A stretch of DNA of 64,000 nt from NCBI GenBank assembly GCA_000002445.1, contig CH464491.1, positions 2,336,001-2,400,000 on the forward strand. The letters run 5' to 3'. This DNA comes from Trypanosoma brucei. Its lineage: Eukaryota. The first letter of the stretch is position 1. Each line of letters opens with the position of its first letter. This document shows, piece after piece, positions 1 to 37,780 of this stretch. A model generated the notes under the pieces. The model was not told where the DNA came from, did no database searches, and worked only from the letters and a program-made list of their open reading frames with translations. A program made the translations under genes and the position numbers.

Positions 1-77
1 NNNNNNNNNNNNNNNNNNNNNNNNNNNNNNNNNNNNNNNNNNNNNNNNNNNNNNNNNNNNNNNNNNNNNNNNNNNNN
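1..77. other. Assembly gap (run of N) at the left edge of the window
   Basis: 77 consecutive N characters. They sit directly against a truncated copy of the tandem repeat unit, which suggests a collapsed or unresolved repeat array. Confidence 0.95.
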
Positions 78-78
78 C

Positions 79-762
79 GAACTTTGTTATATCTTTACCG
101 AAAAAACATATCGCTTTTTGCTTGGAGCTTCCATTGGCATTATGCAATGGCCCGATGCGTGTAATATACCGGGTGGCTCTGTCGATGATGGGACAGGTGT
201 GGGAAGGAAGTCAGTTGGTAGTGAACGTACATTCAAAATATTGCAAAGCAAAGAGGAATTACAGGAAATTGTTGATTTTATTTTTAATTCTTCGTATGAT
301 GAACTAAAGAAACATGAGCTGATGTGTAGACAGGTTTCGTTAAGAATAAGGTGGGCAACCTATCGATCCCGGCAGTATACTATGAATTTAGCCCAACATT
401 CAGATGACTCTGCAACCCTTCGCCGCGCAGTGGATGGTTTACTGTTACCGCATGCTGCAAAGTACTCAGATATGTCGTTACTGGGGATGCGTCTGTTAGA
501 CCTTATCTTTGCAAAAGACTTTCATATGAAAAAAAAGGGTGGTAACCAACTGTCTATTTCACAATTTATTCGCCCCAAGAAGCCGGGTGAGGTAACAGCA
601 ACCACCGGTATAAAAAGGGAGAGGACTACTGAACCGAAACAGGTTGTGGAAATAATAATATCATCAGATGACGAGGATGAGAATGATAGTGTTGGCTTGG
701 CATCTAGCTCCACTATACTCGTTTCAACTGGCAAAGGTACTGTGAGAGGGAAGTTACCATAA
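79..762 (+). CDS. POLK: DNA polymerase kappa (Y-family, DinB-like), partial copy: C-terminal ~228 codons only, 5' part lost in the gap
   Basis: The frame opens immediately after the N-run and is colinear with the C-terminal third of the full copies downstream (LLGASIGIMQWPDA ... QYSDDSATLRRAVDGLLLPHAAKYS ... SSDDEDENDSVGLASSS). The supplied ORF 118..762 begins at a TTG. The last codons differ from the other copies (KGTVRGKLP versus KGTVEREVTII). Confidence 0.8.
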   Translation, partial: ELCYIFTEKTYRFLLGASIGIMQWPDACNIPGGSVDDGTGVGRKSVGSERTFKILQSKEELQEIVDFIFNSSYDELKKHELMCRQVSLRIRWATYRSRQYTMNLAQHSDDSATLRRAVDGLLLPHAAKYSDMSLLGMRLLDLIFAKDFHMKKKGGNQLSISQFIRPKKPGEVTATTGIKRERTTEPKQVVEIIISSDDEDENDSVGLASSSTILVSTGKGTVRGKLP

Positions 763-1567
763 TTTAGTGAAGTGAGGACATCAGTCAATGGAAACGCTCA
801 CATTGCCCAATGGCATTCATATACAAATCACCTATACACAAGTACCCATAAACAAAACACATTATACACATGTATTGTTATACAGCTATCATATGTTTTC
901 ATTTTTTGAAGTTATACTTTATATGGTTTATTACTTACATTGTTTTTTCTTAAGCATGCTTGTGCTCATGTACAACCAGTGGAGCAACTGGCTAATAACT
1001 CCTTCATCTTTGTGCGGACACCTTGGTGTATCCTATACTTTCTTTGAGGCCTTCTAATCCAGGTACTTTTTACACACTGTGACGCTAATAAGTGTAGTTC
1101 TTTTGATTAATGTCTACTGCGTGCAGTGATGCGAAAAAGTGTGTACTTTATTTGTATGTTTATCTTCGGGTTTGATTTGTTTGGTTGCTGATGACAGTGG
1201 AAGGCCTCTGCAATTATGAAAACTCATAAGGAGGTCCACTACAATTATACTGTTGTTCCCAGATATACGGGTGTGCGCCTAAAGGGACACGTGACGTTCA
1301 AATTGGATATCCCTCCCATTGTTGACCGTATCTCACATTATTGGATATGTTGTAATCACTGACGGCTTGCTGTGAACTGCCACAGCTGTACACATGCACA
1401 CACATGTGATTCGGTTTTTCTTCTCCCAATATCCTTCCTTTCATATAATATAGGCAACCACACAATATTGGCACAACACCTGCTATCAAACTACCCTAAC
1501 CCAAGTGTCTGTTTGTTTCTTTACGTCACTGGGAGGGTTTTAACAAGAACTAACATTGAGTCTGACC

Positions 1568-3280
1568 ATGTGTGGGGGAGAAGAGAATGGTGGATTGGAT
1601 CAGGCACATGTGTCCTACAGTGGCAGTGCGAGTGAGCAAAACATTGCGGAAATGATTGTAGGCCCATCAGCTTCCATCACCATGGGTTTTCCGTTTTCCA
1701 TCGATTGCAATAAGGCAGGAATGGGAAATGTGGATAAGGAACGTGTGGAAGCTATTATACGTGATGCCAGGGAAGGATCCCCCTTTCTATTGAATGAACA
1801 ACGTTTGGCTGAGGGTCGAGAGAAGCAACTGCAAGAGCTCAAACGGAAATCATCTCTCTTCACTCAGTTGTTGGGTGGTGAACGAAACGCTGCGCAGCGG
1901 AAACAGTGGGAGCTGAAGGTTTCCAAAATGGAGCAGGAGCTTGAGGCTACGCGTCGACTGGGAACTTATATCCATTTAGACATGGACATGTTTTATGCTG
2001 CTGTTGAAATCAAGAAGCATCCGGAGTACGCCACCATTCCGCTTGCCATAGGCACCATGACGAGGCTACAAACAGCAAATTACATTGCGCGTGGACGTGG
2101 TGTCCGTCCCGGTATGCCAGGTTTCCTTGCTCTAAAAATCTGCCCAAATCTACTATTACTCCCTCCCGATGATGATTCTTACTATTTGGAATCCAATATC
2201 GTACGTCGTATTGTTGCTGAATACGACCCTAATTACATAGTTGTTGGTTTGGATGACTTTACTCTCGAAGTAAGTGCCTACATAGAGCGTTTTGAGGGAA
2301 CCAAAACAGCCGAAGATGTGGCTTCTGAACTGCGTGTGCGTGTATTTGGTGAAACAAAGTTGACAGCAAGTGCTGGTATTGGACCCACTGCAGCACTTGC
2401 CAAGATTGCCAGTAATATTAATAAGCCGAATGGACAACATGATCTTAATCTTCACACCCGAGGGGATGTGATGACATACGTCAGGGATTTGGGTCTACGT
2501 TCTGTGCCTGGTGTTGGGAAGGTTACGGAAGCTCTGTTGAAGGGACTGGGTATCACCACTCTCGGCGACATTCACGATAGGCGTGTTGAACTTTGTTACA
2601 TTTTGCACAATAATTTATTTCGCTTTTTGCTTGGAGCTTCCATTGGCATTATGCAATGGCCCGATGCAGCAACGGCAGCCAATACCGAGAATTGTGAGGG
2701 GGCTACTGGAGGGCAACGGAAGGCAATCAGTAGCGAGCGATCTTTTTATGTGTTACATAGCAAAGAGCAGTTGCATGAAATGATTTACAGTATTTTTGAA
2801 GAGGCCTATGAAGAAATGCGACAGAATGAGATGTTGTGTCGTCAGATCTCCTTGCTTGTGCGTTGGTCGTCTTATCGTTATCAACAATACACAAAAAGTT
2901 TGATACAATATTCAGATGACTCTGCAACCCTTCGCCGCGCAGTGGATGGTTTACTGTTACCGCACGCTGCAAAGTATTCAGAGATGTGTTTGTTGGGGGT
3001 ACGTTTTCTTGACCTTATCTCTGCAAAAGACTTTCATATGAAAAGAAAGGGTGGTAACCAACTGTCTATTTCACAATTTATTCGCCCCAAGAAGCCGGGT
3101 GAGGTAACAGCAACCACCGGTATAAAAAGGGAGAGGACTACTGAACCGAAACAGGTTGTGGAAATAATAATATCATCAGACGACGAGGATGAGAATGATA
3201 GTGTTGGCTTGGCATCTAGCTCCACTATACTCGTTTCAACTGACAAAGGTACTGTTGAGAGGGAAGTTACCATAATTTAG
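1568..3280 (+). CDS. POLK: DNA polymerase kappa (Y-family translesion polymerase), array copy 1
   Basis: Y-family motifs are visible: HLDMDMFYAAVE (motif I with catalytic Asp), VGLDDFTLEV (catalytic D/E), LTASAGIGPTAALAKIASNINKPNGQ (motif III/IV), and a helix-hairpin-helix region VPGVGKVTEALLKGLGI. The N-terminus resembles the pol kappa N-clasp (NKAGMGNVDKERVEAII). The first ATG of the frame is at 1568; the track start at 1556 is TTG. Confidence 0.9.
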   Translation: MCGGEENGGLDQAHVSYSGSASEQNIAEMIVGPSASITMGFPFSIDCNKAGMGNVDKERVEAIIRDAREGSPFLLNEQRLAEGREKQLQELKRKSSLFTQLLGGERNAAQRKQWELKVSKMEQELEATRRLGTYIHLDMDMFYAAVEIKKHPEYATIPLAIGTMTRLQTANYIARGRGVRPGMPGFLALKICPNLLLLPPDDDSYYLESNIVRRIVAEYDPNYIVVGLDDFTLEVSAYIERFEGTKTAEDVASELRVRVFGETKLTASAGIGPTAALAKIASNINKPNGQHDLNLHTRGDVMTYVRDLGLRSVPGVGKVTEALLKGLGITTLGDIHDRRVELCYILHNNLFRFLLGASIGIMQWPDAATAANTENCEGATGGQRKAISSERSFYVLHSKEQLHEMIYSIFEEAYEEMRQNEMLCRQISLLVRWSSYRYQQYTKSLIQYSDDSATLRRAVDGLLLPHAAKYSEMCLLGVRFLDLISAKDFHMKRKGGNQLSISQFIRPKKPGEVTATTGIKRERTTEPKQVVEIIISSDDEDENDSVGLASSSTILVSTDKGTVEREVTII

Positions 3281-4085
3281 TGAAATGAGGACATCAGTCA
3301 ATAGAAATTCCCACATTGCCCAATGGCATTCATATACAAATCACCTATACACAAGTACCCATAAACAAAACACATTATACACATGTATTGTTATACACCT
3401 ATCATATGTTTTCATTTTTTGAAGTTATACTTTATATGGTTTATTACTTACATTGTTTTTTTCTTAAGCATGCTTGTGCTCATGTACAACCAGTGGAGCA
3501 ACTGGCTAATAACTCCTTCATCTTTGTGCGGACACCTTGGTGTATCCTATACTTTCTTTGAGGCCTTCTAATCCAGGTACTTTTTACACACTGTGACGCT
3601 AATAAGTGTAGTTCTTTCTTTTGATTAATGTCTACTGCGTGCAGTGATGTGAAAAAGTCTGTACTTTATTTGTATGTTTATCTTCGGGTTTGATTTGTTT
3701 GGTTGCTGATGACAGTGGAAGGTCTCTGCAATTATGAAAACTCATAAGGAGGTCCACTATAATTATACTGTTGTTCCCAGATATACGGGTGTGCGCCTAA
3801 AGGGACAGGTGACGTTCAAATTGGATATCCCTCCCATTGTTGACCGTATCTCACATTATTGGATATGTTGTAATCACTGACGGCTTGCTGTGAACTGCCA
3901 CAGCTGTACACATGCACACACATGTGATTCGGTTTTTCTTCTCCCAATATCCTTCCTTTCATATAATATAGGCAACCACACAATATTGGCACAACACCTG
4001 CTATCAAACTACCCTAACCCAAGTGTCTGTTTGTTTCTTTACGTCACTGGGAGGGTTTTAACAAGAACTAACATTGAGTCTGACT

Positions 4086-5801
4086 ATGTGTGGGGGAGAA
4101 GAGAATGGTGGATTGGATCAGGCACATGTGTCCTACAGTGGCAGTGCGAGTGAGCAAAACATTGCGGAAATGATTGTAGACCCATCAGGTTCCCGTCAGC
4201 CCACAGCATTCCAACTCACACTCGATTGCAATAAGGCAGGAATGGGAAATGTGGATAAGGAACGTGTGGAAGCTATTATACGTGATGCCAGGGAAGGCAC
4301 ACCTTTTTTATTAAATGAACAACGTTTGGCTGAGGGTCGAGAGAAGCAACTGCAAGAGCTGAAGCGGAAATCATCTCTCTTCACTCGGTTGTTGGGTGGT
4401 GAACGAAACGCTGCGCAGCGGAAACAGTGGGAGCTGAAGGTTTCCAAAATAGAACAGGAGCTTGAGGCTACGCGTCGACTGGGAACTTATATCCATTTAG
4501 ACATGGACATGTTTTATGCTGCTGTTGAAATCAAGAAGCATCCGGAGTACGCCACCATTCCGCTTGCCATAGGCACCATGACTATGATAATAACAACAAA
4601 TTATGTTGCGCGTGGACGTGGTATTCGTCAAGGTATGCCAGGTTTCCTTGCTCTAAAAATCTGCCCAAATCTACTATTACTCCCTCCCGATGATGATTCC
4701 TACTATTTGGAATCCAATATCGTACGTCGTATTGTTGCTGAATACGACCCTAATTATATAGTTGTTGGTTTGGATGACTTTACTCTCGAAGTAAGTGCCT
4801 ACATAGAGCGTTTTGAGGGAACCAAAACAGCCGAAGATGTGGCTTCTGAACTGCGTGTGCGTGTATTTGGTGAAACAAAGTTGACAGCAAGTGCTGGTAT
4901 TGGACCCACTGCAGCACTTGCCAAGATTGCCAGTAATATTAATAAGCCGAATGGACAACATGATCTTAATCTTCACACGCGAGGGGATGTGATGACATAC
5001 GTCAGGGATTTGGGTCTACGTTCTGTGCCTGGTGTTGGGAAGGTTACGGAAGCTCTGTTGAAGGGACTGGGTATCACCACTCTCTCAGATATTTACAATA
5101 GGCGTGTTGAACTTTGTTACATTTTGCACAATAATTTATTTCGCTTTTTGCTTGGAGCTTCCATTGGCATTATGCAATGGCCCGATGCAGCAACGGCAGC
5201 CAATACCGAGAATTGTGAGGGGGCTACTGGAGAGCAACGGAAGGCAATCAGTAGCGAGCGATCCATCACTACTCCACGAACCAAAGAAGGTATGCAGGAA
5301 ATGGTTGATACCGTATTCAATGGTGCCTATGAAGAAATGCGGAAGAGTGAGATAATGTGTAGACGGATATCCCTCACAATTAGATGGGCCTCTTATCGTT
5401 ATCAACAATACACAAAAAGTTTGATACAATATTCAGATGACTCTGCAACCCTTCGCCGCGCAGTAGACGAGCTCATGTTACCGCACGCTGCAAAGTATTC
5501 AGAGATGTGTTTGTTGGGGGTACGTCTCTCGGACCTTATCTCTGCAAAAGACTTTCATATGAAAAGAAAGGGTGGTAACCAACTGTCTATTTCACAATTT
5601 ATTCGCCCCAAGAAGCCGGGTGAGGTAACAGCAACCACCGGTATAAAAAGGGAGAGGACTACTGAACCGAAACAGGTTGTGGAAATAATAATATCATCAG
5701 ATGACGAGGATGAGAATGATAGTGTTGGCTTGGCATCTAGCTCCACTATACTCGTTTCAACTGGCAAAGGTACTGTTGAGAGGGAAGTTACCATAATTTA
5801 G
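4086..5801 (+). CDS. POLK: DNA polymerase kappa, array copy 2
   Basis: Same motifs as copy 1; first ATG at 4086. It differs from copy 1 in discrete blocks (DPSGSRQPTAFQLTL, MTMIITTNYVARGRGIRQGMP, and a little-finger segment SITTPRTKEGMQEMVDTVFNGAYEEMRKSEIMCRRISLTIRWASYRY). Confidence 0.9.
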   Translation: MCGGEENGGLDQAHVSYSGSASEQNIAEMIVDPSGSRQPTAFQLTLDCNKAGMGNVDKERVEAIIRDAREGTPFLLNEQRLAEGREKQLQELKRKSSLFTRLLGGERNAAQRKQWELKVSKIEQELEATRRLGTYIHLDMDMFYAAVEIKKHPEYATIPLAIGTMTMIITTNYVARGRGIRQGMPGFLALKICPNLLLLPPDDDSYYLESNIVRRIVAEYDPNYIVVGLDDFTLEVSAYIERFEGTKTAEDVASELRVRVFGETKLTASAGIGPTAALAKIASNINKPNGQHDLNLHTRGDVMTYVRDLGLRSVPGVGKVTEALLKGLGITTLSDIYNRRVELCYILHNNLFRFLLGASIGIMQWPDAATAANTENCEGATGEQRKAISSERSITTPRTKEGMQEMVDTVFNGAYEEMRKSEIMCRRISLTIRWASYRYQQYTKSLIQYSDDSATLRRAVDELMLPHAAKYSEMCLLGVRLSDLISAKDFHMKRKGGNQLSISQFIRPKKPGEVTATTGIKRERTTEPKQVVEIIISSDDEDENDSVGLASSSTILVSTGKGTVEREVTII

Positions 5802-6606
5802 TGAAATGAGGACATCAGTCAATAGAAATTCCCACATTGCCCAATGGCATTCATATACAAATCACCTATACACAAGTACCCATAAACAAAACACATTATA
5901 CACATGTATTGTTATACACCTATCATATGTTTTCATTTTTTGAAGTTATACTTTATATGGTTTATTACTTACATTGTTTTTTTCTTAAGCATGCTTGTGC
6001 TCATGTACAACCAGTGGAGCAACTGGCTAATAACTCCTTCATCTTTGTGCGGACACCTTGGTGTATCCTATACTTTCTTTGAGGCCTTCTAATCCAGGTA
6101 CTTTTTACACACTGTGACGCTAATAAGTGTAGTTCTTTCTTTTGATTAATGTCTACTGCGTGCAGTGATGCGAAAAAGTCTGTACTTTATTTGTATGTTT
6201 ATCTTCGGGTTTGATTTGTTTGGTTGCTGATGACAGTGGAAGGTCTCTGCAATTATGAAAACTCATAAGGAGGTCCACTATAATTATACTGTTGTTCCCA
6301 GATATACGGGTGTGCGCCTAAAGGGACACGTGACGTTCAAATTGGATATCCCTCCCATTGTTGACCGTATCTCACATTATTGGATATGTTGTAATCACTG
6401 ACGGCTTGCTGTGAACTGCCACAGCTGTACACATGCACACACATGTGATTCGGTTTTTCTTCTCCCAATATCCTTCCTTTCATATAATATAGGCAACCAC
6501 ACAATATTGGCACAACACCTGCTATCAAACTACCCTAACCCAAGTGTCTGTTTGTTTCTTTACGTCACTGGGAGGGTTTTAACAAGAACTAACATTGAGT
6601 CTGACT

Positions 6607-8322
6607 ATGTGTGGGGGAGAAGAGAATGGTGGATTGGATCAGGCACATGTGTCCTACAGTGGCAGTGCGAGTGAGCAAAACATTGCGGAAATGATTGTAG
6701 ACCCATCAGGTTCCCGTCAGCCCACAGCATTCCAACTCACACTCGATTGCAATAAGGCAGGAATGGGAAATGTGGATAAGGAACGTGTGGAAGCTATTAT
6801 ACGTAATGTATCTGAGGGTTCTTCCTTTTTGATGAATGAACAACGTTTGGCTGAGGGTCGAGAGAAGCAACTGCAAGAGCTCAAACGGAAATCATCTCTC
6901 TTCACTCAGTTGTTGGGTGGTGAACGAAACGCTGCGCAGCGGAAACAGTGGGAGCTGAAGGTTTCCAAAATAGAACAGGAGCTTGAGGCTACGCGTCGAC
7001 TGGGAACTTATATCCATTTAGACATGGACATGTTTTATGCTGCTGTTGAAATCAAGAAGCATCCGGAGTACGCCGCCATTCCGCTTGCCATAGGCACCAT
7101 GACGAGGCTACAAACAGCAAATTACATTGCGCGTGGACGTGGTGTTCGATGTAGCATGCCAGGTTTCCTTGCTCTAAAAATCTGCCCGAATTTGCTCATT
7201 CTGCCTCCTGATTTCGATGCTTACAACGAGGAATCCAATACTGTGCGCCGTATTGTTGCTGAATACGACCCTAATTATATCAGCTTTGGTTTGGATGAAC
7301 TGACCCTTGAGGTAAGTGCCTACATAGAGCGTTTTGAGGGAACCAAAACAGCCGAAGATGTGGCTTCTGAACTGCGTGTGCGTGTATTTGGTGATACAAA
7401 GTTGACAGCAAGTGCTGGTATTGGACCCACTGCAGCACTTGCCAAGATTGCCAGTAATATTAATAAGCCGAATGGACAACATGATCTTAATCTTCATACC
7501 CGAGAGGATGTGATGACATACGTCAGGGATTTGGGTCTACGTTCTGTGCCTGGTGTTGGGAAGGTTACGGAAGCTCTGTTGAAGGGACTGGGTATCACCA
7601 CTCTCTCAGATATTTACAATAGGCGTGTTGAACTTTGTTACATTTTGCACAATAATTTATTTCGCTTTTTGCTTGGAGCTTCCATTGGCATTGTGCAATG
7701 GCCCGATGCAGCAACGGCAGCCAATACCGAGAATTGTGAGGGGGCTACTGGAGGGCAACGGAAGGCAATCAGTAGCGAGCGATCCATCACTACTCCACGA
7801 ACCAAAGAAGGTATGCAGGAAATGGTTGATACCGTATTCAATGGTGCCTATGAAGAAATGCGGAAGAGTGAGCTGATGTGTAGACGCATTTCGTTAAGAA
7901 TAAGGTGGGCCTCCTATCGTTATCAACAATACACAAAAAGTTTGATACAATATTCAGATGACTCTGCAACCCTTCGCCGCGCAGTGGATGGTTTACTGTT
8001 ACCGCATGCTGCAAAGTATTCAGAGATTTCACTGTTGGGGGTACGTTTTCTTGACCTTATCTTTGCAAAAGACTTTCATATGAAAAGAAAGGGTGGTAAC
8101 CAACTGTCTATTTCACAATTTATTCGCCCCAAGAAGCCGGGTGAGGTAACAGCAACCACCGGTATAAAAAGGGAGAGGACTACTGAACCGAAACAGGTTG
8201 TGGAAATAATAATATCATCAGACGACGAGGATGAGAATGATAGTGTTGGCTTGGCATCTAGCTCCACTATACTCGTTTCAACTGACAAAGGTACTGTTGA
8301 GAGGGAAGTTACCATAATTTAG
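6607..8322 (+). CDS. POLK: DNA polymerase kappa, array copy 3
   Basis: Same motifs; first ATG at 6607. It carries its own variant blocks (RNVSEGSSFLMNE; LILPPDFDAYNEESNTVRR ... NYISFGLDELTLEV). The catalytic D/E residues are retained. Confidence 0.9.
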   Translation: MCGGEENGGLDQAHVSYSGSASEQNIAEMIVDPSGSRQPTAFQLTLDCNKAGMGNVDKERVEAIIRNVSEGSSFLMNEQRLAEGREKQLQELKRKSSLFTQLLGGERNAAQRKQWELKVSKIEQELEATRRLGTYIHLDMDMFYAAVEIKKHPEYAAIPLAIGTMTRLQTANYIARGRGVRCSMPGFLALKICPNLLILPPDFDAYNEESNTVRRIVAEYDPNYISFGLDELTLEVSAYIERFEGTKTAEDVASELRVRVFGDTKLTASAGIGPTAALAKIASNINKPNGQHDLNLHTREDVMTYVRDLGLRSVPGVGKVTEALLKGLGITTLSDIYNRRVELCYILHNNLFRFLLGASIGIVQWPDAATAANTENCEGATGGQRKAISSERSITTPRTKEGMQEMVDTVFNGAYEEMRKSELMCRRISLRIRWASYRYQQYTKSLIQYSDDSATLRRAVDGLLLPHAAKYSEISLLGVRFLDLIFAKDFHMKRKGGNQLSISQFIRPKKPGEVTATTGIKRERTTEPKQVVEIIISSDDEDENDSVGLASSSTILVSTDKGTVEREVTII

Positions 8323-8744
8323 TGAAATGAGGACATCAGTCAATAGAAATTCCCACATTGCCCAATGGCATTCATATACAAATCACCTATACACAAGTAT
8401 TGTTATACAGCTATCATATGTTTTCATTTTTTGAAGTTATACTTTATATGGTTTATTACTTACATTGTTTTTTTCTTAAGCATGCTTGTGCTCATGTACA
8501 ACCAGTGGAGCAACTGGCTAATAACTCCTTCATCTTTGTGCGGACACCTTGGTGTATCCTATACTTTCTTTGAGGCCTTCTAATCCAGGTACTTTTTACA
8601 CACTGTGACGCTAATAAGTGTAGTTCTTTCTTTTGATTAATGTCTACTGCGTGCAGTGATGCGAAAAAGTCTGTACTTTATTTGTATGTTTATCTTCGGG
8701 TTTGATTTGTTTGGTTGCTGATGGCAGTGGAAGGCCTCTGCAAT

Positions 8745-8890
8745 TATGTTTGTGTTTTTGTTTCTCTGTGTTGCTGTTTTTCTATATTTTTGGAGTTTGT
8801 TTTTTTTCTTCCTGTTTTTTTGCACTTCTTTTCTTTGCTTTCCTCTTGCAACATATTTTTTTATGTAATTGTATTTTTTTTGTGTGTGTA
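8745..8890 (+). promoter_or_regulatory. Unusually long (~145 nt) polypyrimidine/T-rich tract; putative trans-splicing and polyadenylation signal region upstream of the divergent polymerase paralog
   Basis: This stretch is almost entirely T/C/G with T-runs (tgtttgtgtttttgtttctctgtgttgctgtttttctatatttttggagtttgttttttttcttcctgttttttt...). Kinetoplastid pre-mRNA processing is directed by poly-Y tracts upstream of the AG splice-acceptor. Confidence 0.55.
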
Positions 8891-8971
8891 ATGGTGGCGG
8901 ATGTTGTTTTTGTTTTAGTAGTTGAAGTTTTTGTTTGTTGTTGGATTGAGAGCGACAACGGTAGTTTGCTG

Positions 8972-10636
8972 ATGGTTTCGTTTATTTACAGCTGCGTCTC
9001 TAGTCGTCTGATGTTTGCTAGTGTGAAGAGGGCTGTTGGGCAATATTCATGTTTTCATGTGATTTGTTCCCCGCGCTTCCACAGTAACTATGTTGTGGGG
9101 GTCAACAAGGCGCCTAGTTGGATCGCGTCCCCGACAGAAAGGCGACGAAAGTTTGGTGAAGAGTGCCTTGCCGAAGGTAAAGAGCGGGATGGCGACATGG
9201 ATGTAGAGCTTGTTCCCGTGGACGTGAAAAAGCTTGCTTTGCCCCTGCACCTCACGGACTCGATCCCGCAGGATATCGTCGATAATATCGTTGCGAGAGA
9301 TAGAACACTTGTTTTCGCGCCAAACATGAAGATACTAGACCTGCACAGGCGGTTGTCCCGGATGAAGTATCGGATAAGCGTCCAGCCGCTTGGGAAGGTG
9401 CTGCACTTCCGATTCTTTCGGCTGTGTAAATTGTCCAGCGGTATGCCCGGAGATGTTACAGTGGAAACCTTCCGCAGCATCCAGCAGAAACTCTCCGAGT
9501 ACACAAGATTTTTGGTGATGGATGAACGTTGGCCACTGGAGTTGTCATTAGAAATTACCCCCATTATTGAGCATCAACGGAAGCAAATGCTTGAATGCCA
9601 AGGGGAATGCCGCGTTTCAACGGCGGAGGATGTAATGGAGTTACTTAGTAGTGTTTTTTCCGCTGAGCTCCGCGTGGGGGCGTGGTGCGGTTTGTCTTGC
9701 ACACCAGTCTTGGCGAAGATGGCGTGCGACGAGTGTCACAGGAAACACAAACTATGCCGACAGGACTATTCTCGCGGTGGGGTAGTAGGTACCGTGCGTT
9801 ACGATATTAGGTCGCACAAGGAGGCAAAGGAGTTTGTGCAGAACCTTTCGTTGGGCGATATTCCTGTTGTTGGGAAGCCACAGGCGAGGCTCCTGGAAGA
9901 TGTTTATGGCATTACCAAATGCGGCGGGATTGCGGATCAGGAGGTAAGACTGGGTTTCAGCCTGTCGCAGTCGACGATGGAGTTCTTCCTCTCTGTAGCG
10001 TATGGCACCGTTCGACTCCCTAGCGAGGCCACCACCACGCTTTTGCGCAAACCGCCGAGATGTAAGGCCGCCCATATACGGCGCGAGTCACAGTTTGGCC
10101 GTGTGGTATCAGACGAACAGTTTATCAACACCGTAATGTCCGTCTTCGACAACGTGTACACAGACCTTGTGGAACATGATTTCGTGACGGGACGGGTCAT
10201 GATCGAGACACGCCGCACACTCCCGCGCACTCATTGGGTGGTTGAAGAGAGCGAAGACATTGCGCCCCGAACGAACGACCGCGATTTGCTGCGGGAGGTA
10301 ACGATCCGCCTCGCAAGACGTTTTGCCCCACGGCGAACCGAAGAGCTGCGAGACATTTACAGCGTTGGTGTTCATTTCGGAGACGTGCGCTCGTGGTCAG
10401 AGAATGAGAGGTTGCAGAAGAAAGCTGTTGCAGTGAGCGAAGGGGGCAGCCCCACGACAGGCGGAAGGAAGGATGGCGTTATCGGTGCGGCGAACGGTGT
10501 CCCGGCGCCTACAGTGCCCAAGGGTAGCTCTTCCGCTGGGGCACGACAGCAGAAAAGAAAGAGAACGGGCACCGGTCCAAAGCCGTTGAGGAAAGGCAAG
10601 ATGGGGGCGGCATCGGGAATTCGCATCGTCACATAA
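8972..10636 (+). CDS. Divergent Y-family polymerase (pol kappa-like) paralog with a degenerate motif set and a basic Gly/Lys/Arg-rich C-terminal tail; start codon uncertain (candidates 8891, 8972, 9011)
   Basis: Colinear but weak similarity to the array copies: DMDVELVPVD versus DMDMFYAAVE; LVMDERWPLELSLEI versus VGLDDFTLEV; SCTPVLAKMACDECHRKHKLCRQ versus GIGPTAALAKIASNINKPNGQ; GDIPVVGKPQARLLEDVYGITKCGGI versus VPGVGKVTEALLKGLGITTLGDI. The track ORF 8702 starts at TTG inside the poly-Y tract, so the true start is a downstream ATG. The C-terminus GGRKDGVIGAANG...QQKRKRTGTGPKPLRKGK looks like a nuclear localisation signal. Confidence 0.6.
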   Translation: MVSFIYSCVSSRLMFASVKRAVGQYSCFHVICSPRFHSNYVVGVNKAPSWIASPTERRRKFGEECLAEGKERDGDMDVELVPVDVKKLALPLHLTDSIPQDIVDNIVARDRTLVFAPNMKILDLHRRLSRMKYRISVQPLGKVLHFRFFRLCKLSSGMPGDVTVETFRSIQQKLSEYTRFLVMDERWPLELSLEITPIIEHQRKQMLECQGECRVSTAEDVMELLSSVFSAELRVGAWCGLSCTPVLAKMACDECHRKHKLCRQDYSRGGVVGTVRYDIRSHKEAKEFVQNLSLGDIPVVGKPQARLLEDVYGITKCGGIADQEVRLGFSLSQSTMEFFLSVAYGTVRLPSEATTTLLRKPPRCKAAHIRRESQFGRVVSDEQFINTVMSVFDNVYTDLVEHDFVTGRVMIETRRTLPRTHWVVEESEDIAPRTNDRDLLREVTIRLARRFAPRRTEELRDIYSVGVHFGDVRSWSENERLQKKAVAVSEGGSPTTGGRKDGVIGAANGVPAPTVPKGSSSAGARQQKRKRTGTGPKPLRKGKMGAASGIRIVT

Positions 10637-10861
10637 GTGGTGTTGATGGTGGCCACTAATTGCAGATTCTTATTTGGTCGTGGGAGCACTGTTGCTTGCA
10701 AGTGGCCGGTGTACTGCGCGGGGGCAACACTTCAACATGCAGCCGGGCTGAACGGGGCGCGAAGGAAACAGCCGTCGAACCAGAGGTTCTACAAACCCGC
10801 GATGCGTTGATGAGCTAAACGCTTCGTCGAGCACGTACGCTACTCAAAGGCTTTGAGTATC

Positions 10862-12394
10862 ATGCAAAGGTCGCTGTACCTGCCATTCTTTTCTCATCCC
10901 TGCTCATTATTCATTTGCGTCCTTTCCAGGACTTCCTTTTCACCCATTTTCTGTATCCTCATCCTTCGCCTGCAGGTAGCGCTCAGATACCGCGGCATGT
11001 GGCGTCACAGCTGTATTCTTCATGGAATACCCCCTGCAGAGGGGCTGATGACAACCCCCGGAACGCTGCCGCCCACTTCATCCTCTCCGCGTTGTACGCA
11101 CACTTGTGTGGTTCGTGACCAACACCGCGGCCGTGACAACCGCGATTTCGCGCTTTTATCCACGTCGGCATCTCCCGGGGGTCGGCTGCTCTCCTTGCAT
11201 ATCGATAGCGAGCGGGCGGAACTGCGCCAGGCGCGGATCGCAGCTGTGAGTGATTCCCTGTTGAAAACAAGGGGGGCCGCCATGCACTTGCGTCTGACTT
11301 CCTCCCGGAGTGGTGGCGTGGCGCGCGGCGCTGGGTTTGACGCTGGCGAACAAACTCGGGGGAAAGTGCCAACGCCCCTTCAAATGACACCGTGGAGCCG
11401 CGTGGATACCACTGTTTTGGTTACAGATGACTATTGTGAACCGGTACGGCGCCTCCGGCTGTACAGTGAGCATGAGGACACCGCGGTCGTAATGGCGCCG
11501 GACGCGTTGTACCAACTGCGGTTGGATCCGCTGATAAGGGAGTGCTTCTTCGATGTGGGTTGCGCGGCTGTGAACGCAACGGCGGTGGACTGCTGGGGGC
11601 CGCATTGCGCGGTCGTCGGATTTTCTTCGGGTGATTTGTCCGTTGTTGACTGGCGTGACCCAGGTGGTGGTCCGCTGCTGCGGACCAGGCCGCCTCAGCC
11701 ACCATTTGTTGCCCTACCGAAGTGCGGACGGCGCCTTGCAACTGCTCCACTATTTACAGGTGTGATGTCGTGTTGCTCGCTGGATGATGGATTCCGAATT
11801 GTGTGCGGGTTTGGAGATTTCGCCGGAACAGTTGTGGTTGCAGACCTGCGGAAAGCCGTGACGAACTCGAGCGATAAAAGGAAGAGTGGTCGCCGTTCTT
11901 TGGGGAAGGAAGGTCAGGATGCCGTTCTTACTGGCTCCTTTTCATCACCCACCTCCTACCCAGTATGCGACATGAGGCACTGTCGTGACAGCTTTGGCAC
12001 AATTGGCATGGTAGACACAGGAGGGACGGCACTCCTAACGTCAATAGGTGCACTGGAGTCGGGCGCTCTAAAGGCCCGTCGAGCACGGTGTGGGGCGGTT
12101 GCCAATGGAACCTTCGTGAGCGAACTCAAGCGTGGTGATGATGTTCCTATTAAGCATACGCGTGCCCTGCGGTGTGACGTTTCACCAAATGGATCTTTTG
12201 TAGCGAGCACGGCTGCGGGGCCTTGGTCAGCTTCACTTACAACCCTTTGTGGTAGGAGTGTTCCTCTTGGTTTCGGCTACTCTGCGGTGGAGGGGCTTGG
12301 AGAAGAGGTGTTCACGTCGATTTCATGTATGGGATCGGTCGTGGGCGCTCAGGCAATAGATGGGAGCGTCGTCCACGCCACCATTGAACCGTAA
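10862..12394 (+). CDS. Hypothetical protein (possible beta-propeller/WD-like repeats); the N-terminal ~45 codons are probably UTR, and ATG 10997 is an alternative start
   Basis: A long ORF in the same orientation as its neighbours. Its upstream part translates a pyrimidine-rich stretch (LYLPFFSHPCSLFICVL), which is typical of UTR. No motif I can name with confidence. Confidence 0.4.
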   Translation: MQRSLYLPFFSHPCSLFICVLSRTSFSPIFCILILRLQVALRYRGMWRHSCILHGIPPAEGLMTTPGTLPPTSSSPRCTHTCVVRDQHRGRDNRDFALLSTSASPGGRLLSLHIDSERAELRQARIAAVSDSLLKTRGAAMHLRLTSSRSGGVARGAGFDAGEQTRGKVPTPLQMTPWSRVDTTVLVTDDYCEPVRRLRLYSEHEDTAVVMAPDALYQLRLDPLIRECFFDVGCAAVNATAVDCWGPHCAVVGFSSGDLSVVDWRDPGGGPLLRTRPPQPPFVALPKCGRRLATAPLFTGVMSCCSLDDGFRIVCGFGDFAGTVVVADLRKAVTNSSDKRKSGRRSLGKEGQDAVLTGSFSSPTSYPVCDMRHCRDSFGTIGMVDTGGTALLTSIGALESGALKARRARCGAVANGTFVSELKRGDDVPIKHTRALRCDVSPNGSFVASTAAGPWSASLTTLCGRSVPLGFGYSAVEGLGEEVFTSISCMGSVVGAQAIDGSVVHATIEP

Positions 12395-22199: not shown

Positions 22200-23405
22200 A
22201 TGACAGCAACCGCAAGGAGTGACGAGGAGGAGCGGGCGGGTCTTCATGAGGAGACGGATATGCAGGCAAATGTTCCAACCATACCCACTTTCGAAGCTAT
22301 GGGGTTAAAAAAAGATCTGCTTCACGGTATGTATGGCTACGGTTACAAGAAACCTACCGCCATCCAGAAGCGCTTCGTTGCGCCGTTCCTACAGTCGCGG
22401 GATCTGGTAGCACAGGCATCGTCAGGCTCGGGAAAGACTTCAGCATTCTGTATTTGTCTTTTGCAGGCAAGTGAACCCACATTACGTGAGACACAGGGAC
22501 TTGTTCTGAGCCCCACAAGGGAGCTGGCACTACAAACTCAGGACTTGTGCAATAACATAGGCCATTACATGGGCATCTCTGCTTATGCCGCCATTGGGGG
22601 GAAAAGCATAGAAGATGATCTCCGGCGCTTAGAGAGTGGCGTGCAGATCGTGTCTGGTACCCCCGGCCGCGTGTTTGATATGATTAAGCGCCGTCATCTG
22701 CGTGTTAATCATCTCAAAACACTTGTTTTGGATGAGGCGGACGAAATGCTTGGAAAGGGGTTTAAAGCACAGATACATGATATTTACCGTATGATTCCGC
22801 CACTTCAAGTAGTACTTGTATCTGCTACCTTGCCGGTGGATGTGCTGGATATGACTGAGAAGTTCATGACAGAACCAGTGCGCATTCTTGTGAAGCGCGA
22901 CGAGATCACTGTAGATTCCATTATGCAGTACTTCGTTTCCGTGGATGAAGAAAAGAATAAATTTGATACATTATGTGATTTGTACGATACTCTGACCATT
23001 GCTCATGCCGTGATATTCTGCAATACCCGCAAGAAAGTAGAGCAACTCGCGAAGAAAATGACCAAGGAGAAATTCACCGTTAGTTTCATGCATGGAGATA
23101 TGCCCCAGGCGGAGCGGGATGAGATTATGCGAAACTTCCGCGAGGGCAAAAGTCGTGTGTTGATTTCAACGGACTTGTGGTCACGCGGTATTGATGTCGA
23201 GCAGATATCGCTGGTACTCAACTACGACTTGCCCTTCTCCCGTGAACAGTACATCCATCGTATTGGTCGCACGGGGCGAATGGGGCGGAAGGGGCTGGCA
23301 ATTAGTTTTGTGAAGCACGATGAACTGAGGCTGTTGCGTGACATTGAGCAGTTCTACGCCACACAAATTGAAGAACTACCAGCAAACGTCGGTGAACAGT
23401 TCTAA
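22200..23405 (+). CDS. eIF4A-family DEAD-box RNA helicase (401 aa; eIF4AIII-like by my reading, paralog assignment uncertain)
   Basis: Complete DEAD-box motif set: Q-motif region TAIQKR, motif I ASSGSGKT, Ia [37 protein letters not shown]. The size and the N-terminal [28 protein letters not shown] are typical of eIF4A proteins. Confidence 0.88.
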
Positions 23406-35711: not shown

Positions 35712-36943
35712 ATAGGGATCTCCTCCAATCTATCGAACGGCTGCGTCCTTTTTCCAGAAGAGTTGTATCTGTTGATTTGCCCGTGGTGGAGATGGCAAGG
35801 GTGAGTTATATATGTAACTAGCATGTGGGGTTGTACTATCCAAAGCCCATGTAGGTAGTCAATAAATGTGTACAGTTGGTTGTCGAGGTGGGGGTGTTGC
35901 GTGCGTTGGTGAGGAGGGTGTGCTTTTTGTATGCATACAACGTATGCTTACCTCCCATCCACCACAACCACAACCTCCAACCAGTCAGAATGCTCGTTTT
36001 GTTCTTCGCTTTTCACCGTATTCGGTACTGTTGCTTCTACCCAAATTTGAACACTTTGCTTTAAGTATTATCTTTTTTCTTTGTTTGCTCCGCCACGACA
36101 AGTCAACGACTGTGCCGCGACGGCGCCTTAGTGGCGGCCCCTCCGTCGTTGCCCTTTTGCTCTGTAGAAGATATGTCGCTTTCTGCTTATTTGCTGAAAA
36201 GCAAATACGGGCGCCATTCAGCTGATCCGGCGTCACGTACTGTGTGGACGGTCACTGCTAGGTTTCCAGTCTGTTTATTTCCCTCCTTTTTTTGAGCTTA
36301 GTTGGGCACTAGTTTTCTTCCCTATGCCTGAAAATAAAAATCGTGGCGTGCCTTCGCTGGGCCACCGCGGTTTGTGGCGAGACGGGGAGAAGCCCGCGCC
36401 AAACGCAACGGGTTTCAGGAGTACATATGTCGGGGCCCACTTTAATTGTAGGTTTACGCGCCCCGCTACTAAAACATGGTGGTTAGGAAATTTTAGTAAG
36501 ATGATATACCGCTGCGGGCACCAACTTACCCGCCATTGCGGTGTCAAGGTCCAGCGCCGCCCATATCGGTGGACAACAAAACGCCAGCACCTTCGACATG
36601 TCGAGCTGGTTTCGGAGGTGCATTTACAATCACCCGACGGTGCCCCAATGAGGTGCGATGGTCACTTGAGGGGAAGGAAGAAGCGTTAGTTCGCAATTCG
36701 GCATAGCGGGGCAAACCGTATGTTTAGCCTAGTGTGCAGCGAAAAGAAAGGCGTGCGCGAATTTACAATAAACTGCTTCTCGCCGGATTTGCCTTCCGGT
36801 GCACTGCCAAGGTGCTGATCCAGAGGCGACAGGATGCAAGAGCAAAAAAAGGGGAAGGATCATACAAACATACGTAGATGCACACACGTACGCTTATGCA
36901 TTTGTTGTTTGTGAATGTGGCACCGAAGAGGGAACGAATCCCA

Positions 36944-37065
36944 GGGGGGGGGGAGGTTTTGATCGAGTTCTGTGGGGGTGAACTGCGTTAGTAAAGAGTG
37001 TGGGAAAAAACTCCCCCGCGGCAGATGCTTCCACCGCCTCCGGGACAGCCGGGACCCCCCCCCCC
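36944..37065. repeat. Homopolymer pair: G10 (36944-36953) and C11 (37055-37065) about 100 bp apart
   Basis: ccaggggggggggagg ... gggaccccccccccctt. Plus C13 at 15442-15454 and A12 at 32524-32535 elsewhere in intergenic DNA. Confidence 0.85.
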
Positions 37066-37780
37066 TTCCTTTGACAGCGAGCTAGTGATCCGCAAAAGCG
37101 AACAACAACACCCCGCTAGGATATTCGGGATCTGGCGGGGATTGAACCCCCAGGCCGCTTCGTCTCACGGGACCGTGCCGCCGGTAGTGTCTTTAGGGGC
37201 GCCAACGGGCGGAAGCGAATGTGGATGATTCGGCTGCGGTTCTACCCTTCGCATTCGTGCCATCATGCGCAATAGTATCTACGCCACCGACGCTGCAAGA
37301 ACGCGGAGGTGTTACGAGCGGTTTGTGTATGTTGCAGAGGGGGAGAAGGAGAAAGGAAAGTATCCTTTTTTGTTTCCACTGCGGTCGCACGTGTAAGGGA
37401 TTTCGTGAGGCCAAACAGCATTCACTTCAACCTCTCACACTATCACCTTCTTTCCCTCTTTAGCTTCCATATTTTGGAGAGCTGTACAACACCTCTGCAG
37501 CGATTTTTGACACATCCTGCAAAAATCTATTTCTACCACAAACTTCGTCCGGATTGAAAAAACACCAAGAGCACTCGCCTCGAGGGCGATCCCTCATGTG
37601 GCTATAGTTTTCTCCTGGGACTTTCACTTCCAATCTTAACTCATGTTGTCGTCTGCTTTGGTGTAGCTTTCGCACCTCCAAGCTTCGCGTGCACACACAC
37701 CATGGTAGATTCACCGAGCGCAGACTCCGCGGCCATAGCAACTCAACGGTACACGGAACTTCTCTGAACCGCTTATAGCC

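What the first reader, a model, noticed from the sequence alone, without database searches (positions are those of the whole stretch)
8745..10636. Highly diverged polymerase-kappa-like paralog immediately downstream of the array, with degenerate catalytic motifs and a lysine/glycine-rich tail
The gene after the last array unit is colinear with pol kappa through the palm, thumb and HhH regions. It keeps DMD and DE dyads in the expected positions. It has lost the conserved KPNGQ/SAGIG motif-III context and much of the N-clasp, and it gains a ~100-residue basic tail (QQKRKRTGTGPKPLRKGK). That makes it a candidate non-catalytic or neofunctionalised Y-family member, for example a regulatory/decoy polymerase or a DNA-binding scaffold, born from the array. 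It is preceded by an exceptionally long (~145 nt) poly-T/C tract, and its true start codon is ambiguous (8891, 8972 or 9011).
Basis: partly seen in the sequence, partly recalled or inferred. Interest (0 to 1): 0.55.

Follow-up and report, generated by a model that had tools for sequence, protein, structure and literature searches.

The report
Dead, fingerless polymerase-kappa paralog on kDNA
The gene after the Trypanosoma brucei polymerase-kappa array (Tb927.11.8700) encodes an ancient, conserved copy of pol kappa that has lost its fingers domain and two of its three catalytic residues, yet is imported into the mitochondrion and sits on the kinetoplast DNA, so it is most likely a non-catalytic DNA- or partner-binding factor with no published function.

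Summary

It is Tb927.11.8700 (Q384F9) of T. brucei TREU927.

The 'DMD' (aa 75-77) lies in the disordered linker before the fold. The 'DE' (184-185) lies 5 residues off the aligned motif III position and is not conserved in orthologues. Alignment and model show:
- pol kappa beta-1 'YIHLDMD' is replaced by 'VLHFRFF';
- the ~56-residue fingers domain is deleted;
- motif III 'LDE' has become 'PLE'.
Only one carboxylate (E190) survives, so polymerase activity is very unlikely.

The gene was not born from the T. brucei array. The order polK-polK-paralog recurs in T. cruzi, Leptomonas and a third, unnamed trypanosomatid lineage.

Published screens place the protein in the mitochondrial importome and among the 19 TrypTag 'kinetoplast' proteins. 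I found no functional study.

Best reading: a kDNA-associated pseudo-polymerase acting as a non-catalytic binder or adaptor, analogous to bacterial ImuB. Start codon 8972 is best supported. This is a new variant of a known kind, of moderate interest.

The parts
8323..8748 (+). 3' flank of the last pol kappa array unit (still repeat sequence); array homology ends at about 8748
   Evidence: blastn of 8323-10900 against the window: 8373-8748 matches the inter-unit spacers at 97-98% and 8323-8399 at 93-100%
8745..8890 (+). T-rich polypyrimidine tract (64% T, 75% Y; core 8798-8847 is 90% Y); the presumed trans-splicing signal of the downstream gene
   Evidence: only 0.02% of 146-nt windows in the 64 kb are as pyrimidine-rich. 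Its function is inferred from the general rule of trypanosome trans-splicing, not tested.
8917..8927 (+). Cluster of the first AG dinucleotides after the pyrimidine core (8917, 8920, 8926); candidate spliced-leader acceptor sites
   Evidence: one search lists no AG between 8795 and 8916. Using these sites would exclude ATG 8891 from the mRNA. Inferred; no RNA data.
8972..10636 (+). Best-supported CDS of Tb927.11.8700 (554 aa plus stop). TREU927 annotates from 8891 (581 aa, 65.26 kDa); T. equiperdum from 9011.
   Evidence: The orthologue N-termini align from M8972, with a conserved 'SC' motif upstream of M9011. The 65.26 kDa mass and the neighbour's 49.18 kDa / Cx9C positions match Peikert 2017 tables exactly.
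8972..9202 (+). aa 1-77: presequence-like N-terminus (no D/E in the first 55 aa) plus a disordered linker that contains the look-alike 'DMD' (9194-9202)
   Evidence: first acidic residue at 56; same pattern in most orthologues; pLDDT<50 for 1-77; ATOM40-dependent import
9203..9397 (+). aa 78-142: conserved N-terminal segment ('PVDxKKLxLPLH...') and two long helices; probable N-clasp remnant. L92 and H93 are conserved across the family (H93 invariant).
   Evidence: This segment alone gives only a weak hhalign score, E=0.003.
9398..9841 (+). aa 143-290: palm remnant. Beta-1 'VLHFRFF' replaces 'YIHLDMD'. The 'GAWCG...PVLAKMAC' block replaces 'SAGIG...ALAKIASNINKPNGQ'.
   Evidence: Pfam IMS positions 66-148 on aa 161-253; hhalign; AF2 strands and helices
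9422..9460 (+). aa 151-163: short loop at the site where pol kappa carries its ~56-aa fingers domain (i.e. the fingers deletion)
   Evidence: hhalign gap opposite pol kappa about 145-200. AF2 shows beta 143-150 followed directly by helix 164-175. In other genera the site holds only variable low-complexity inserts.
9521..9553 (+). aa 184-194 'DERWPLELSLE': motif III remnant. Pol kappa 'GLDELTLEV' aligns to 'WPLELSLEI', so the catalytic Asp becomes L189 while the Glu is kept as E190 (20 of 21 family members).
9842..10012 (+). aa 291-347: thumb with a helix-hairpin-helix remnant ('IPVVGKPQARLL')
   Evidence: IMS_HHH matches 9 of 11 Trypanosoma orthologues at E<=0.01 but is sub-threshold in T. brucei. 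The PDB profile hit to human pol kappa covers this region.
10067..10387 (+). aa 366-472: little-finger (PAD) domain with beta-alpha-beta-beta-alpha-beta topology
10397..10633 (+). aa 476-554: C-terminal helix followed by a disordered basic Gly/Lys/Pro-rich tail (net +12, pI 11.7) ending in the hydrophobic 'GIRIVT'

Best explanation
Window 8972-10636 encodes Tb927.11.8700, a pseudo-polymerase derived from DNA polymerase kappa by an ancient tandem duplication, at or before the trypanosomatid ancestor.

What it keeps: the N-terminal helices, the palm scaffold, the thumb and the little finger.
What it has lost: the fingers domain and two of the three metal-binding carboxylates. It therefore cannot bind an incoming dNTP or catalyse nucleotidyl transfer.

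How it is made and where it goes:
- It is expressed from the polycistron, using the T-rich tract at 8745-8890 as its trans-splicing signal (inferred).
- It is translated most likely from ATG 8972 (inferred).
- It is imported into the mitochondrion through ATOM40 by an N-terminal presequence (import shown by others; presequence inferred).
- It accumulates on the kinetoplast DNA disc (shown by TrypTag tagging).

Proposed function (inferred): a non-catalytic kDNA-associated factor. It would hold DNA and/or partner proteins through the leftover Y-family scaffold, the conserved N-terminal 'LPLH' segment and the basic tail. This would be an adaptor or occupancy role comparable to the catalytically dead Y-family protein ImuB of bacteria.
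For: HOMOLOGY TO POL KAPPA
- Pfam IMS E=2.4e-5, and all 11 Trypanosoma orthologues hit IMS.
- BLASTP against the neighbouring pol kappa, E=2e-11.
- hhalign family against kinetoplastid pol kappa: probability 99.9%, E=7.9e-31 local and 1.6e-42 global.
- The profile search of 1.84 billion representatives returns only family members and canonical pol kappas.
- The PDB profile search hits only pol kappa and Pol IV.

LOSS OF CATALYSIS
- Beta-1 'HLDMD' has become 'HFRFF'.
- There is a 56-aa gap in place of the fingers.
- 'LDE' has become 'PLE'.
- AF2 gives beta 143-150 followed directly by helix 164-175.
- The same holds in all 21 family members aligned.

SELECTION AND AGE
- The family is monophyletic in 100 of 100 bootstraps.
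- Synteny is conserved in T. cruzi, Leptomonas and a third lineage.
- Full-length ORFs are present in more than 20 species.

EXPRESSION AND LOCATION
- 8 peptides were detected, with a 4-fold loss on ATOM40 RNAi (log2 -1.96, p=0.0008). The protein is listed as a new mitochondrial candidate (PMC5436138 Suppl. Data 1 and 6).
- It was detected again in PMC11349236.
- It is one of 19 'kinetoplast' proteins in TrypTag (PMC9981465, sheet FigureS8F).
- The N-termini of most orthologues lack acidic residues for 30-68 aa.
Against: - No direct evidence of DNA binding exists. In Trypanosoma the thumb is acidic (pI 4.5-5) and the little finger is near neutral, unlike in pol kappa. The HhH glycines are lost outside Trypanosoma. 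The kDNA association could therefore be indirect, or run through the tail only.
- The alignment around beta-1 and the deletion borders has low posterior confidence.
- I could not inspect model coordinates. The spatial position of D184, E185 and E190 is therefore untested.
- Localisation rests on a single high-throughput tagging entry.
- Abundance did not change on Pam16/Pam18 RNAi, which perturbs kDNA replication.
- No phenotype data were found.
Confidence: 0.7

Rival explanations
1. It is still an enzyme. Either it is a polymerase or nucleotidyl-transferase with a rebuilt active site (for example D84, D184/E185 and E190 in T. brucei), or it becomes active in complex with another subunit that supplies the missing elements.
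For: E190 (the catalytic Glu position) and K249 (the conserved Y-family Lys of 'LAK') are conserved across the family: E190 in 20 of 21 members, K249 in all. D84 and D184 are invariant within Trypanosoma. Some databases name orthologues 'DNA-directed DNA polymerase'.
Against: D84, D184 and E185 are not conserved outside Trypanosoma. The whole fingers domain, which holds the templating base and the dNTP, is absent in every member. The steric-gate / motif I segment is gone. Only IMS profile positions 66-148 match.
Confidence: 0.05
2. It has a non-DNA role at the kinetoplast. The scaffold would have been recruited as a protein-protein or RNA-binding module of mitochondrial transcription or RNA processing, or of another nucleoid-associated machine. 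This has happened to many pseudo-enzymes in trypanosome mitochondria.
For: The canonical DNA-binding surfaces look degraded: acidic thumb, near-neutral little finger, lost HhH glycines. The most conserved family-specific element is the N-terminal 'LPLH' segment, not a DNA-contact motif. mtTF1, another protein in the same TrypTag 'kinetoplast' list, turned out to be a transcription factor.
Against: The protein is absent from every solved trypanosome mitochondrial complex in the PDB; the sequence search found no hit. It is not among the enriched proteins listed in Tables 1 and 2 of the mtRNAP pull-down paper. The basic tail and the Y-family origin fit nucleic-acid binding equally well.
Confidence: 0.2
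3. It is a decaying relic of tandem duplication with no function of its own, and the ORF is annotation noise.
For: It evolves faster than pol kappa (mean p-distance 0.69 within the family against 0.60 within kinetoplastid pol kappas). The start codon is annotated inconsistently. T. vivax and T. conorhini models are truncated or altered at the C-terminus.
Against: Uninterrupted ORFs of 525-900 aa are kept in syntenic position across trypanosomatid genera. There are 10 invariant and 12 nearly invariant columns across the family. Peptides have been detected in two studies. The protein has a specific sub-organellar localisation.
Confidence: 0.03

Closest known systems
DNA polymerase kappa / DinB subfamily of Y-family polymerases (human POLK; T. 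cruzi mitochondrial Pol kappa; the adjacent Tb927.11 pol kappa array)
   Same: It shares ancestry and fold: palm scaffold, thumb with HhH, little finger and probably the N-clasp helices. It is the best sequence, profile and structure match. It is adjacent in the genome. T. cruzi Pol kappa is also at the kinetoplast (Rajao 2009, as cited in PMC10719067).
   Different: There is no fingers domain. Motif I (DMDxFY) and the Asp of motif III are lost. KPNGQ is lost. The thumb is acidic. It has a family-specific 'LPLH' N-terminal motif, an 'AK.AC' cysteine signature and a basic Gly/Lys tail.
ImuB (bacterial catalytically dead Y-family homologue of the ImuA'-ImuB-DnaE2 mutasome); comparison from my own knowledge, not tested here
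   Same: It is a Y-family scaffold that has lost its catalytic carboxylates but is retained under selection. It carries a disordered C-terminal extension used for interactions. The presumed role is an adaptor or hub next to active polymerases.
   Different: No specific sequence relationship to ImuB was found; every hit is of the pol kappa / DinB type. ImuB is, as far as I know, not described as lacking the fingers domain. ImuB works through the beta-clamp, and no mitochondrial clamp partner is known in trypanosomes. This is an independent eukaryotic, organellar origin.
Other catalytically dead polymerase paralogues in euglenozoan mitochondria (e.g. the Diplonema mt-DNAP X/beta lacking catalytic residues, PMC12699882)
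   Same: A mitochondrial DNA-polymerase paralogue without conserved catalytic residues, taken by those authors to have a role other than DNA synthesis.
   Different: It belongs to a different polymerase family (X, not Y) and a different lineage. No domain deletion is reported.
Basic-tailed kDNA proteins (KAPs; the Pro/Ala/Lys-rich domain of Pol beta-PAK); comparison from my own knowledge
   Same: A Lys/Gly/Pro/Ala-rich disordered basic segment on a protein that localises throughout the kDNA disc.
   Different: The tail here is C-terminal, short (about 65 aa) and poorly conserved in sequence. No homology was tested or claimed.

Membership tests
Y-family DNA polymerase superfamily (Pfam IMS / impB-mucB-samB) | Significant match to the IMS palm profile | tested here: met
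   PF00817 scores 24.7 bits against a cut-off of 23.2, E=2.4e-5, but only profile positions 66-148. It matches 11 of 11 Trypanosoma orthologues, best E=1.3e-12.
Y-family DNA polymerase superfamily (Pfam IMS / impB-mucB-samB) | Three catalytic carboxylates (motif I Asp; motif III Asp-Glu) | tested here: not met
   hhalign gives HLDMD to HFRFF and LDE to PLE. Only E190 is retained, and this holds across the 21 family members.
Y-family DNA polymerase superfamily (Pfam IMS / impB-mucB-samB) | Fingers domain between palm beta-1 and the following palm helix | tested here: not met
   There is a 56-aa alignment gap. AF2 shows a 13-residue loop between beta 143-150 and helix 164-175. No IMS profile positions 1-65 match.
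Y-family DNA polymerase superfamily (Pfam IMS / impB-mucB-samB) | Thumb with helix-hairpin-helix | tested here: inconclusive
   IMS_HHH scores 15 bits against a cut-off of 24.4 in T. brucei. It matches 9 of 11 orthologues at E<=0.01. The hairpin Gly is lost outside Trypanosoma. The fold is predicted with pLDDT around 90.
Y-family DNA polymerase superfamily (Pfam IMS / impB-mucB-samB) | Little-finger / PAD domain | tested here: met
Y-family DNA polymerase superfamily (Pfam IMS / impB-mucB-samB) | Template-directed DNA synthesis / lesion bypass activity | not testable with these tools
   This needs purified protein and primer-extension assays. Absence of activity is predicted from the sequence.
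Pol kappa / DinB subfamily | Closest relatives are pol kappa / DinB rather than eta, iota or Rev1 | tested here: met
   All non-family hits carry DMDxF[YF] and/or KP[ND]G. The PDB profile search hits only pol kappa and Pol IV. The best fold matches are pol kappa. The family is sister to the kinetoplastid pol kappa clade in 68 of 100 bootstraps.
Pol kappa / DinB subfamily | KPNGQ motif after the 'LAK' helix | tested here: not met
   It is replaced by a variable insert after 'AKMACDE'.
Pol kappa / DinB subfamily | N-clasp helices preceding the palm | tested here: inconclusive
   Helices 100-137 align to pol kappa 86-128 with posterior values up to 8 in the full-profile alignment. The segment alone gives E=0.003 and probability 10%.
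ImuB-like catalytically inactive Y-family adaptors (functional analogy only) | Loss of catalytic residues with retention under selection | tested here: met
ImuB-like catalytically inactive Y-family adaptors (functional analogy only) | Specific homology to ImuB, clamp-binding motif, interaction with a partner polymerase | not tested
   No ImuB sequences appeared among the hits. A direct comparison was not run. Partner interactions need experiments.
Kinetoplast (kDNA)-associated mitochondrial proteins of T. brucei | Import into the mitochondrion and co-localisation with kDNA | tested here: met
   This comes from the literature, not from computation. ImportOmics gives log2 -1.96, p=0.0008 (PMC5436138). 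TrypTag gives the 'kinetoplast' class (PMC9981465). Gene identity is verified by exact mass and Cx9C-position matches.

The most novel reading that the evidence does not exclude
The protein is a 'decoy polymerase' for kDNA. It would be a fingerless, dead pol kappa that still clamps primer-template junctions or the nicks and gaps that mark newly replicated minicircles. By holding these structures it would keep them unrepaired, or hand them to Pol beta-PAK, ligase or pol kappa only once network replication is complete. This would be a eukaryotic, organellar counterpart of bacterial ImuB and a missing regulator of the long-known delayed gap-closure step of kDNA replication.
Probability: 0.12. Interest if true: 0.8.

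Novelty: new variant of a known kind. Interest (0 to 1): 0.5.

Why it matters
kDNA replication and repair use an unusually large set of polymerases, and the network is a validated vulnerability of trypanosomatid parasites. This protein is conserved across trypanosomatids, located on kDNA and absent from any functional study I could find. It is a Y-family polymerase turned into a pseudo-enzyme by deletion of a whole domain.

If it binds DNA ends, gaps or partner polymerases, it would be a new regulatory layer of kDNA maintenance. It would also be the first eukaryotic analogue I am aware of for the bacterial dead-polymerase adaptor ImuB.

In practical terms, the result corrects database names ('DNA-directed DNA polymerase' in T. 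rangeli and T. conorhini). It also argues for ATG 8972 rather than the TREU927 start at 8891.

Tried and rejected
SEARCHES THAT FOUND NOTHING
- The sequence search of the PDB with the single protein found nothing relevant. The protein is therefore not a chain in any solved trypanosome mitochondrial complex.
- Literature searches by guessed gene IDs, old ID, UniProt ID, 'impB' and 'kappa-like' found no main-text mention.
- The HyperLOPIT supplements (PMC10361982) and the TAC paper supplements had no entry. The mtTF1 paper holds no supplements.
- 'DNA polymerase kappa' was absent from the (truncated) ImportOmics tables. I therefore could not tell whether T. brucei imports a catalytic pol kappa.

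- The word-indexed homologue search with the family alignment and with P0025 returned only close relatives or unnamed assemblies. The exhaustive representative search was what revealed the non-Trypanosoma members.
- The afdb50 fold library was unavailable.
- A first NJ tree failed on saturated Kimura distances, after a time-out. It was redone with Poisson distances.

IDEAS CONSIDERED AND REJECTED
- The weak Pfam CCCH zinc-finger hit at aa 246-267 (E=0.025) was rejected. The Cys/His pattern 'CDECHRKHKLC' is not conserved even in T. grayi or T. cruzi.
- An SIM or clamp-binding reading of the hydrophobic C-terminus was considered. The motif is enriched but not universal, so it is left as an observation.
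- A second copy of the gene inside the window was sought and not found.
Full report
WHAT THE WINDOW IS

The window is Trypanosoma brucei brucei TREU927 chromosome 11. It starts in an assembly gap (1-77 are N) inside the tandem array of DNA polymerase kappa genes. The array ORFs are a partial one at 118-762, then 1556-3280, 4074-5801 and 6595-8322. The units are about 2.52 kb long and 92-95% identical.

The ORF under study runs to 10636. Translated from ATG 8891 it has a mass of 65.26 kDa. The next ORF, translated from ATG 10997, has a mass of 49.18 kDa with Cx9C motifs at 189-199 and 260-270. These values are exactly those tabulated for Tb927.11.8700 (old ID Tb11.12.0004, UniProt Q384F9) and Tb927.11.8710 in Peikert et al. 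2017. That table is followed by GP63, Tb927.11.8720. The DEAD-box ORF at 22200-23405 fits eIF4AIII, Tb927.11.8770. The 581-aa TREU927 protein is in the database as P0065.

CHECKING THE OBSERVATION

Homology to pol kappa is real and far beyond chance:
- BLASTP against the neighbouring pol kappa gives 24% identity over 254 aa, E=2e-11.
- Pfam IMS just passes its gathering threshold (24.7 against 23.2 bits, E=2.4e-5), but only for profile positions 66-148 of 148.
- All 11 Trypanosoma orthologues hit IMS, and 9 hit IMS_HHH.
- A profile of 21 family members against a profile of 20 pol kappas, mostly kinetoplastid, gives probability 99.9% and E=7.9e-31 over target residues 96-476.
- An AlphaFold2 model built on the orthologue alignment is confident over residues ~80-490, apart from the 354-369 thumb-little finger linker. 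It is disordered at 1-77, 354-369 and 490-554.

The tract at 8745-8890 is among the most T-rich 146-nt stretches of the 64 kb; the maximum starts one base upstream, at 8744 (64% T, 75% pyrimidine). It begins where array-repeat homology stops, at about 8748.

The two 'retained dyads' are look-alikes.

DMD. This is residues 75-77 in the 554-aa numbering (nt 9194-9202). It lies in the low-confidence linker before the fold begins. It is not conserved: orthologues have DINMKL, ALDVEL and DPSIKL. In the profile alignment the pol kappa strand 'TYIHLDMDMF' faces 'KVLHFRFFRL'.

Fingers. The next ~56 pol kappa residues form the whole fingers domain, including the steric-gate 'FYAAVE' and 'NYxARxxGVRxxMPG'. 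They face a gap. This agrees with three other results:
- the model, where strand 143-150 is followed after 13 residues by the palm helix 164-175;
- the missing first 65 positions of the Pfam match;
- the other genera, which at this site carry nothing or variable low-complexity inserts.

DE. Pol kappa motif III 'GLDELTLEV' aligns with high confidence to 'WPLELSLEI'. The Asp has become L189 (N, G or R elsewhere), and only the Glu (E190) is kept. E185 is N, D or K in T. congolense, T. grayi, T. cruzi and T. conorhini. D184 has no counterpart outside Trypanosoma.

The protein has therefore lost two of three catalytic carboxylates and the dNTP/template-binding domain. The alignment confidence at the deletion borders is low, and I could not read model coordinates. 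The exact geometry is therefore inferred, not shown.

ORIGIN

An exhaustive HMM search of 1.84 billion representatives found only 41 proteins at E<=1e-3. They fall into two classes:
- family members, which lack DMDxFY and KPNGQ and carry 'P[VA]LAKxAC[DE]';
- canonical pol kappas.

Named family members come from Trypanosoma spp., Phytomonas, Leptomonas, Lotmaria, Porcisia and Angomonas. The family is monophyletic (100 of 100 NJ bootstraps) and sister to the kinetoplastid pol kappa clade (68 of 100). It sits on a long branch.

Gene order is conserved:
- T. cruzi: HAD hydrolase, polK-604, polK-514, paralog.
- Leptomonas: polK-667, polK-651, paralog, unknown, AAA, syntaxin.
- An unnamed amastin-bearing trypanosomatid: HAD, amastins, polK, polK, paralog, unknown, AAA.

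The paralog is therefore an ancient tandem duplicate of pol kappa. The T. brucei array is a later expansion next to it, not its source.

START CODON

Public annotations use all three ATGs.
- Orthologue N-termini align from M8972, including a conserved 'SC' four residues in. This is upstream of M9011.
- The 27 extra residues from 8891 (MVADVVFVLVVEVFVCCW...) are translated from T/G-rich sequence continuous with the tract.
- There is no AG between 8795 and 8916. The first AGs after the pyrimidine core are at 8917, 8920 and 8926. A spliced-leader acceptor there would leave 8972 as the first ATG.

This is inference from the usual trypanosome rule. No RNA data were available.

WHAT THE PROTEIN DOES IN THE CELL

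The first 55 residues contain no acidic residue and are rich in R, S and hydrophobic residues. The same holds for most orthologues. This is typical of a mitochondrial presequence.

Experimental data agree:
- In ImportOmics the protein was identified with 8 peptides in gradient-purified mitochondria.
- Its level fell four-fold on ATOM40 RNAi (log2 -1.96, n=4, p=0.0008), and also fell in whole cells (log2 -1.24).
- It did not respond to PEX14 RNAi.
- It is listed among the 'new mitochondrial candidate proteins' (PMC5436138 Supplementary Data 1, 3, 6 and 10).
- It was detected again in a later mitochondrial proteomics study.
- In the genome-wide tagging map it is one of only 19 proteins classed 'kinetoplast'. 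This class is separate from the 58 antipodal-site and 20 TAC proteins (PMC9981465 source data, sheet FigureS8F). The same list contains mtTF1, since validated as a kDNA-bound factor.

I found no main-text mention of this gene in 8 million papers.

MECHANISM

Shown:
- Y-family descent;
- loss of catalytic residues and of the fingers;
- conservation;
- translation;
- ATOM40-dependent import;
- kDNA localisation.

Inferred: the protein acts non-catalytically on kDNA. How it binds is open. In Trypanosoma the thumb is acidic (pI 4.5-5) and the little finger is near neutral. In pol kappa both are basic. The N-terminal helices (pI about 10) and the C-terminal tail (net +12) carry the positive charge. 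In the other genera the little finger is basic, but the HhH glycines are gone.

Family-wide conserved residues (invariant or nearly so) are few: L92, H93, G141, E190, G240, A248, K249, C252, P298, E352, G376, R377 and R455. They include a family-specific 'LH' motif in the N-terminal segment.

My preferred model is a DNA-associated adaptor or occupancy factor, functionally like bacterial ImuB (my knowledge, not tested). A purely protein- or RNA-directed nucleoid role is the main rival. Residual enzymatic activity and 'dead relic' are both unlikely.

NOVELTY

The IMS homology is already visible in database names ('UmuC domain', 'impB/mucB/samB family', and even 'DNA-directed DNA polymerase'). 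The localisation is in public screens. What I did not find anywhere in the searchable literature is:
- recognition that this is a fingerless, carboxylate-depleted pseudo-polymerase;
- its conservation with synteny across trypanosomatids;
- the link between that anatomy and kDNA residence.

It is a new variant of a known kind (an inactive Y-family paralogue), of moderate interest. Interest would be high if the gap-holding 'decoy polymerase' role were demonstrated.

Noticed in passing
window 1556-3280 and 4074-5801 versus 6595-8322: The array pol kappa copies are not identical (89-91% at protein level). Two of them carry 'VVGLDDFTLEV' instead of 'SFGLDELTLEV' at motif III, so the catalytic Glu is Asp. 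They also differ in the fingers ('TRLQTANYIARGRGVRPG' against 'TMIITTNYVARGRGIRQG'). The array therefore encodes a set of variant enzymes rather than simple dosage copies.
   Followed up: partly
window 1-762: Positions 1-77 are N (assembly gap). The partial pol kappa copy that follows (78-762) is much more diverged (72% identity to the first full copy over the aligned region; 66% to the last copy in the little finger). It ends '...GKGTVRGKLP*' because of a frameshift relative to the usual '...EREVTII*', which is still readable in another frame.
   Followed up: partly
outside the window (TREU927 EAN79811.1 / Q384H0 = P0064): TREU927 also annotates a 234-aa N-terminal fragment of the same protein. 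It is identical to aa 1-231 of the 581-aa model and then reads 'AML'. Its accession falls just before the pol kappa genes (EAN79814 is a pol kappa). The array therefore seems to be flanked on both sides by this gene or a piece of it. This may be a footprint of the duplication unit or an assembly artefact at the gap. No second copy exists inside the window.
   Followed up: partly
C-termini of Tb927.11.8700 (nt 10616-10633), of the array pol kappas (e.g. nt 8305-8319) and of homologues: Many family members end in a short hydrophobic run ('GIRIVT', 'RGITVVM', 'VIEVVVV', 'DDVFLV'). Many kinetoplastid pol kappas do the same ('EVTII', 'DEVIVLS', 'RVIFCI', 'DIIVID'). At least 3 of the last 6 residues are V/I/L/M/F in 71% of the family and 55% of the pol kappas. 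The mean is 2.2 of 6 in 23 background ORFs. This may be a shared C-terminal docking motif. The array pol kappa also has an internal SIM-like 'VVEIIISSDDEDEND'.
   Followed up: partly
window 10997-12394 (+): The next gene, Tb927.11.8710 (49.18 kDa), has twin Cx9C motifs. Peikert et al. list it as a motif-predicted MIA-pathway substrate. A gene of unknown function (no Pfam hit; homology not checked) occupies the same position after the paralog in Leptomonas and the unnamed trypanosomatid.
   Followed up: no
window about 36000-44000: GC skew turns negative, and the only long minus-strand ORFs of the window (39385-41565, 41644-42828, 42735-43406) lie here. This suggests a short opposite-strand transcription unit or strand-switch region inside an otherwise plus-strand polycistron.
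   Followed up: no
window 818-874, 3331-3387, 5852-5908: Each array spacer contains a 29-bp motif repeated 1.9 times (CATAAACAAAACACCTATACACAAGTACC). A single related copy lies after the last unit at about 8373-8400.
   Followed up: no
orthologues P0007, P0008 (T. conorhini, T. rangeli): Database names such as 'DNA-directed DNA polymerase' for these orthologues are probably over-annotation, because the family lacks the fingers and two catalytic carboxylates. The T. congolense model (644 aa) has an unsupported N-terminal extension. The T. vivax model (401 aa) is truncated and frameshifted after the thumb.
   Followed up: partly
T. cruzi L001 3696-9054; Leptomonas L003 3293-8623: Kinetoplastid pol kappa paralogues come in two flavours. 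One has an acidic N-terminus and an acidic tail: Tb array copies and Tc 604 aa. The other has a presequence-like N-terminus and a basic tail: Tc 514 aa and Lp 651 aa. Lp 667 aa is mixed, with an acidic tail but a presequence-like N-terminus. All copies visible in this T. brucei window are of the acidic type. Whether T. brucei keeps a mitochondrial catalytic pol kappa is not clear from this window.
   Followed up: partly
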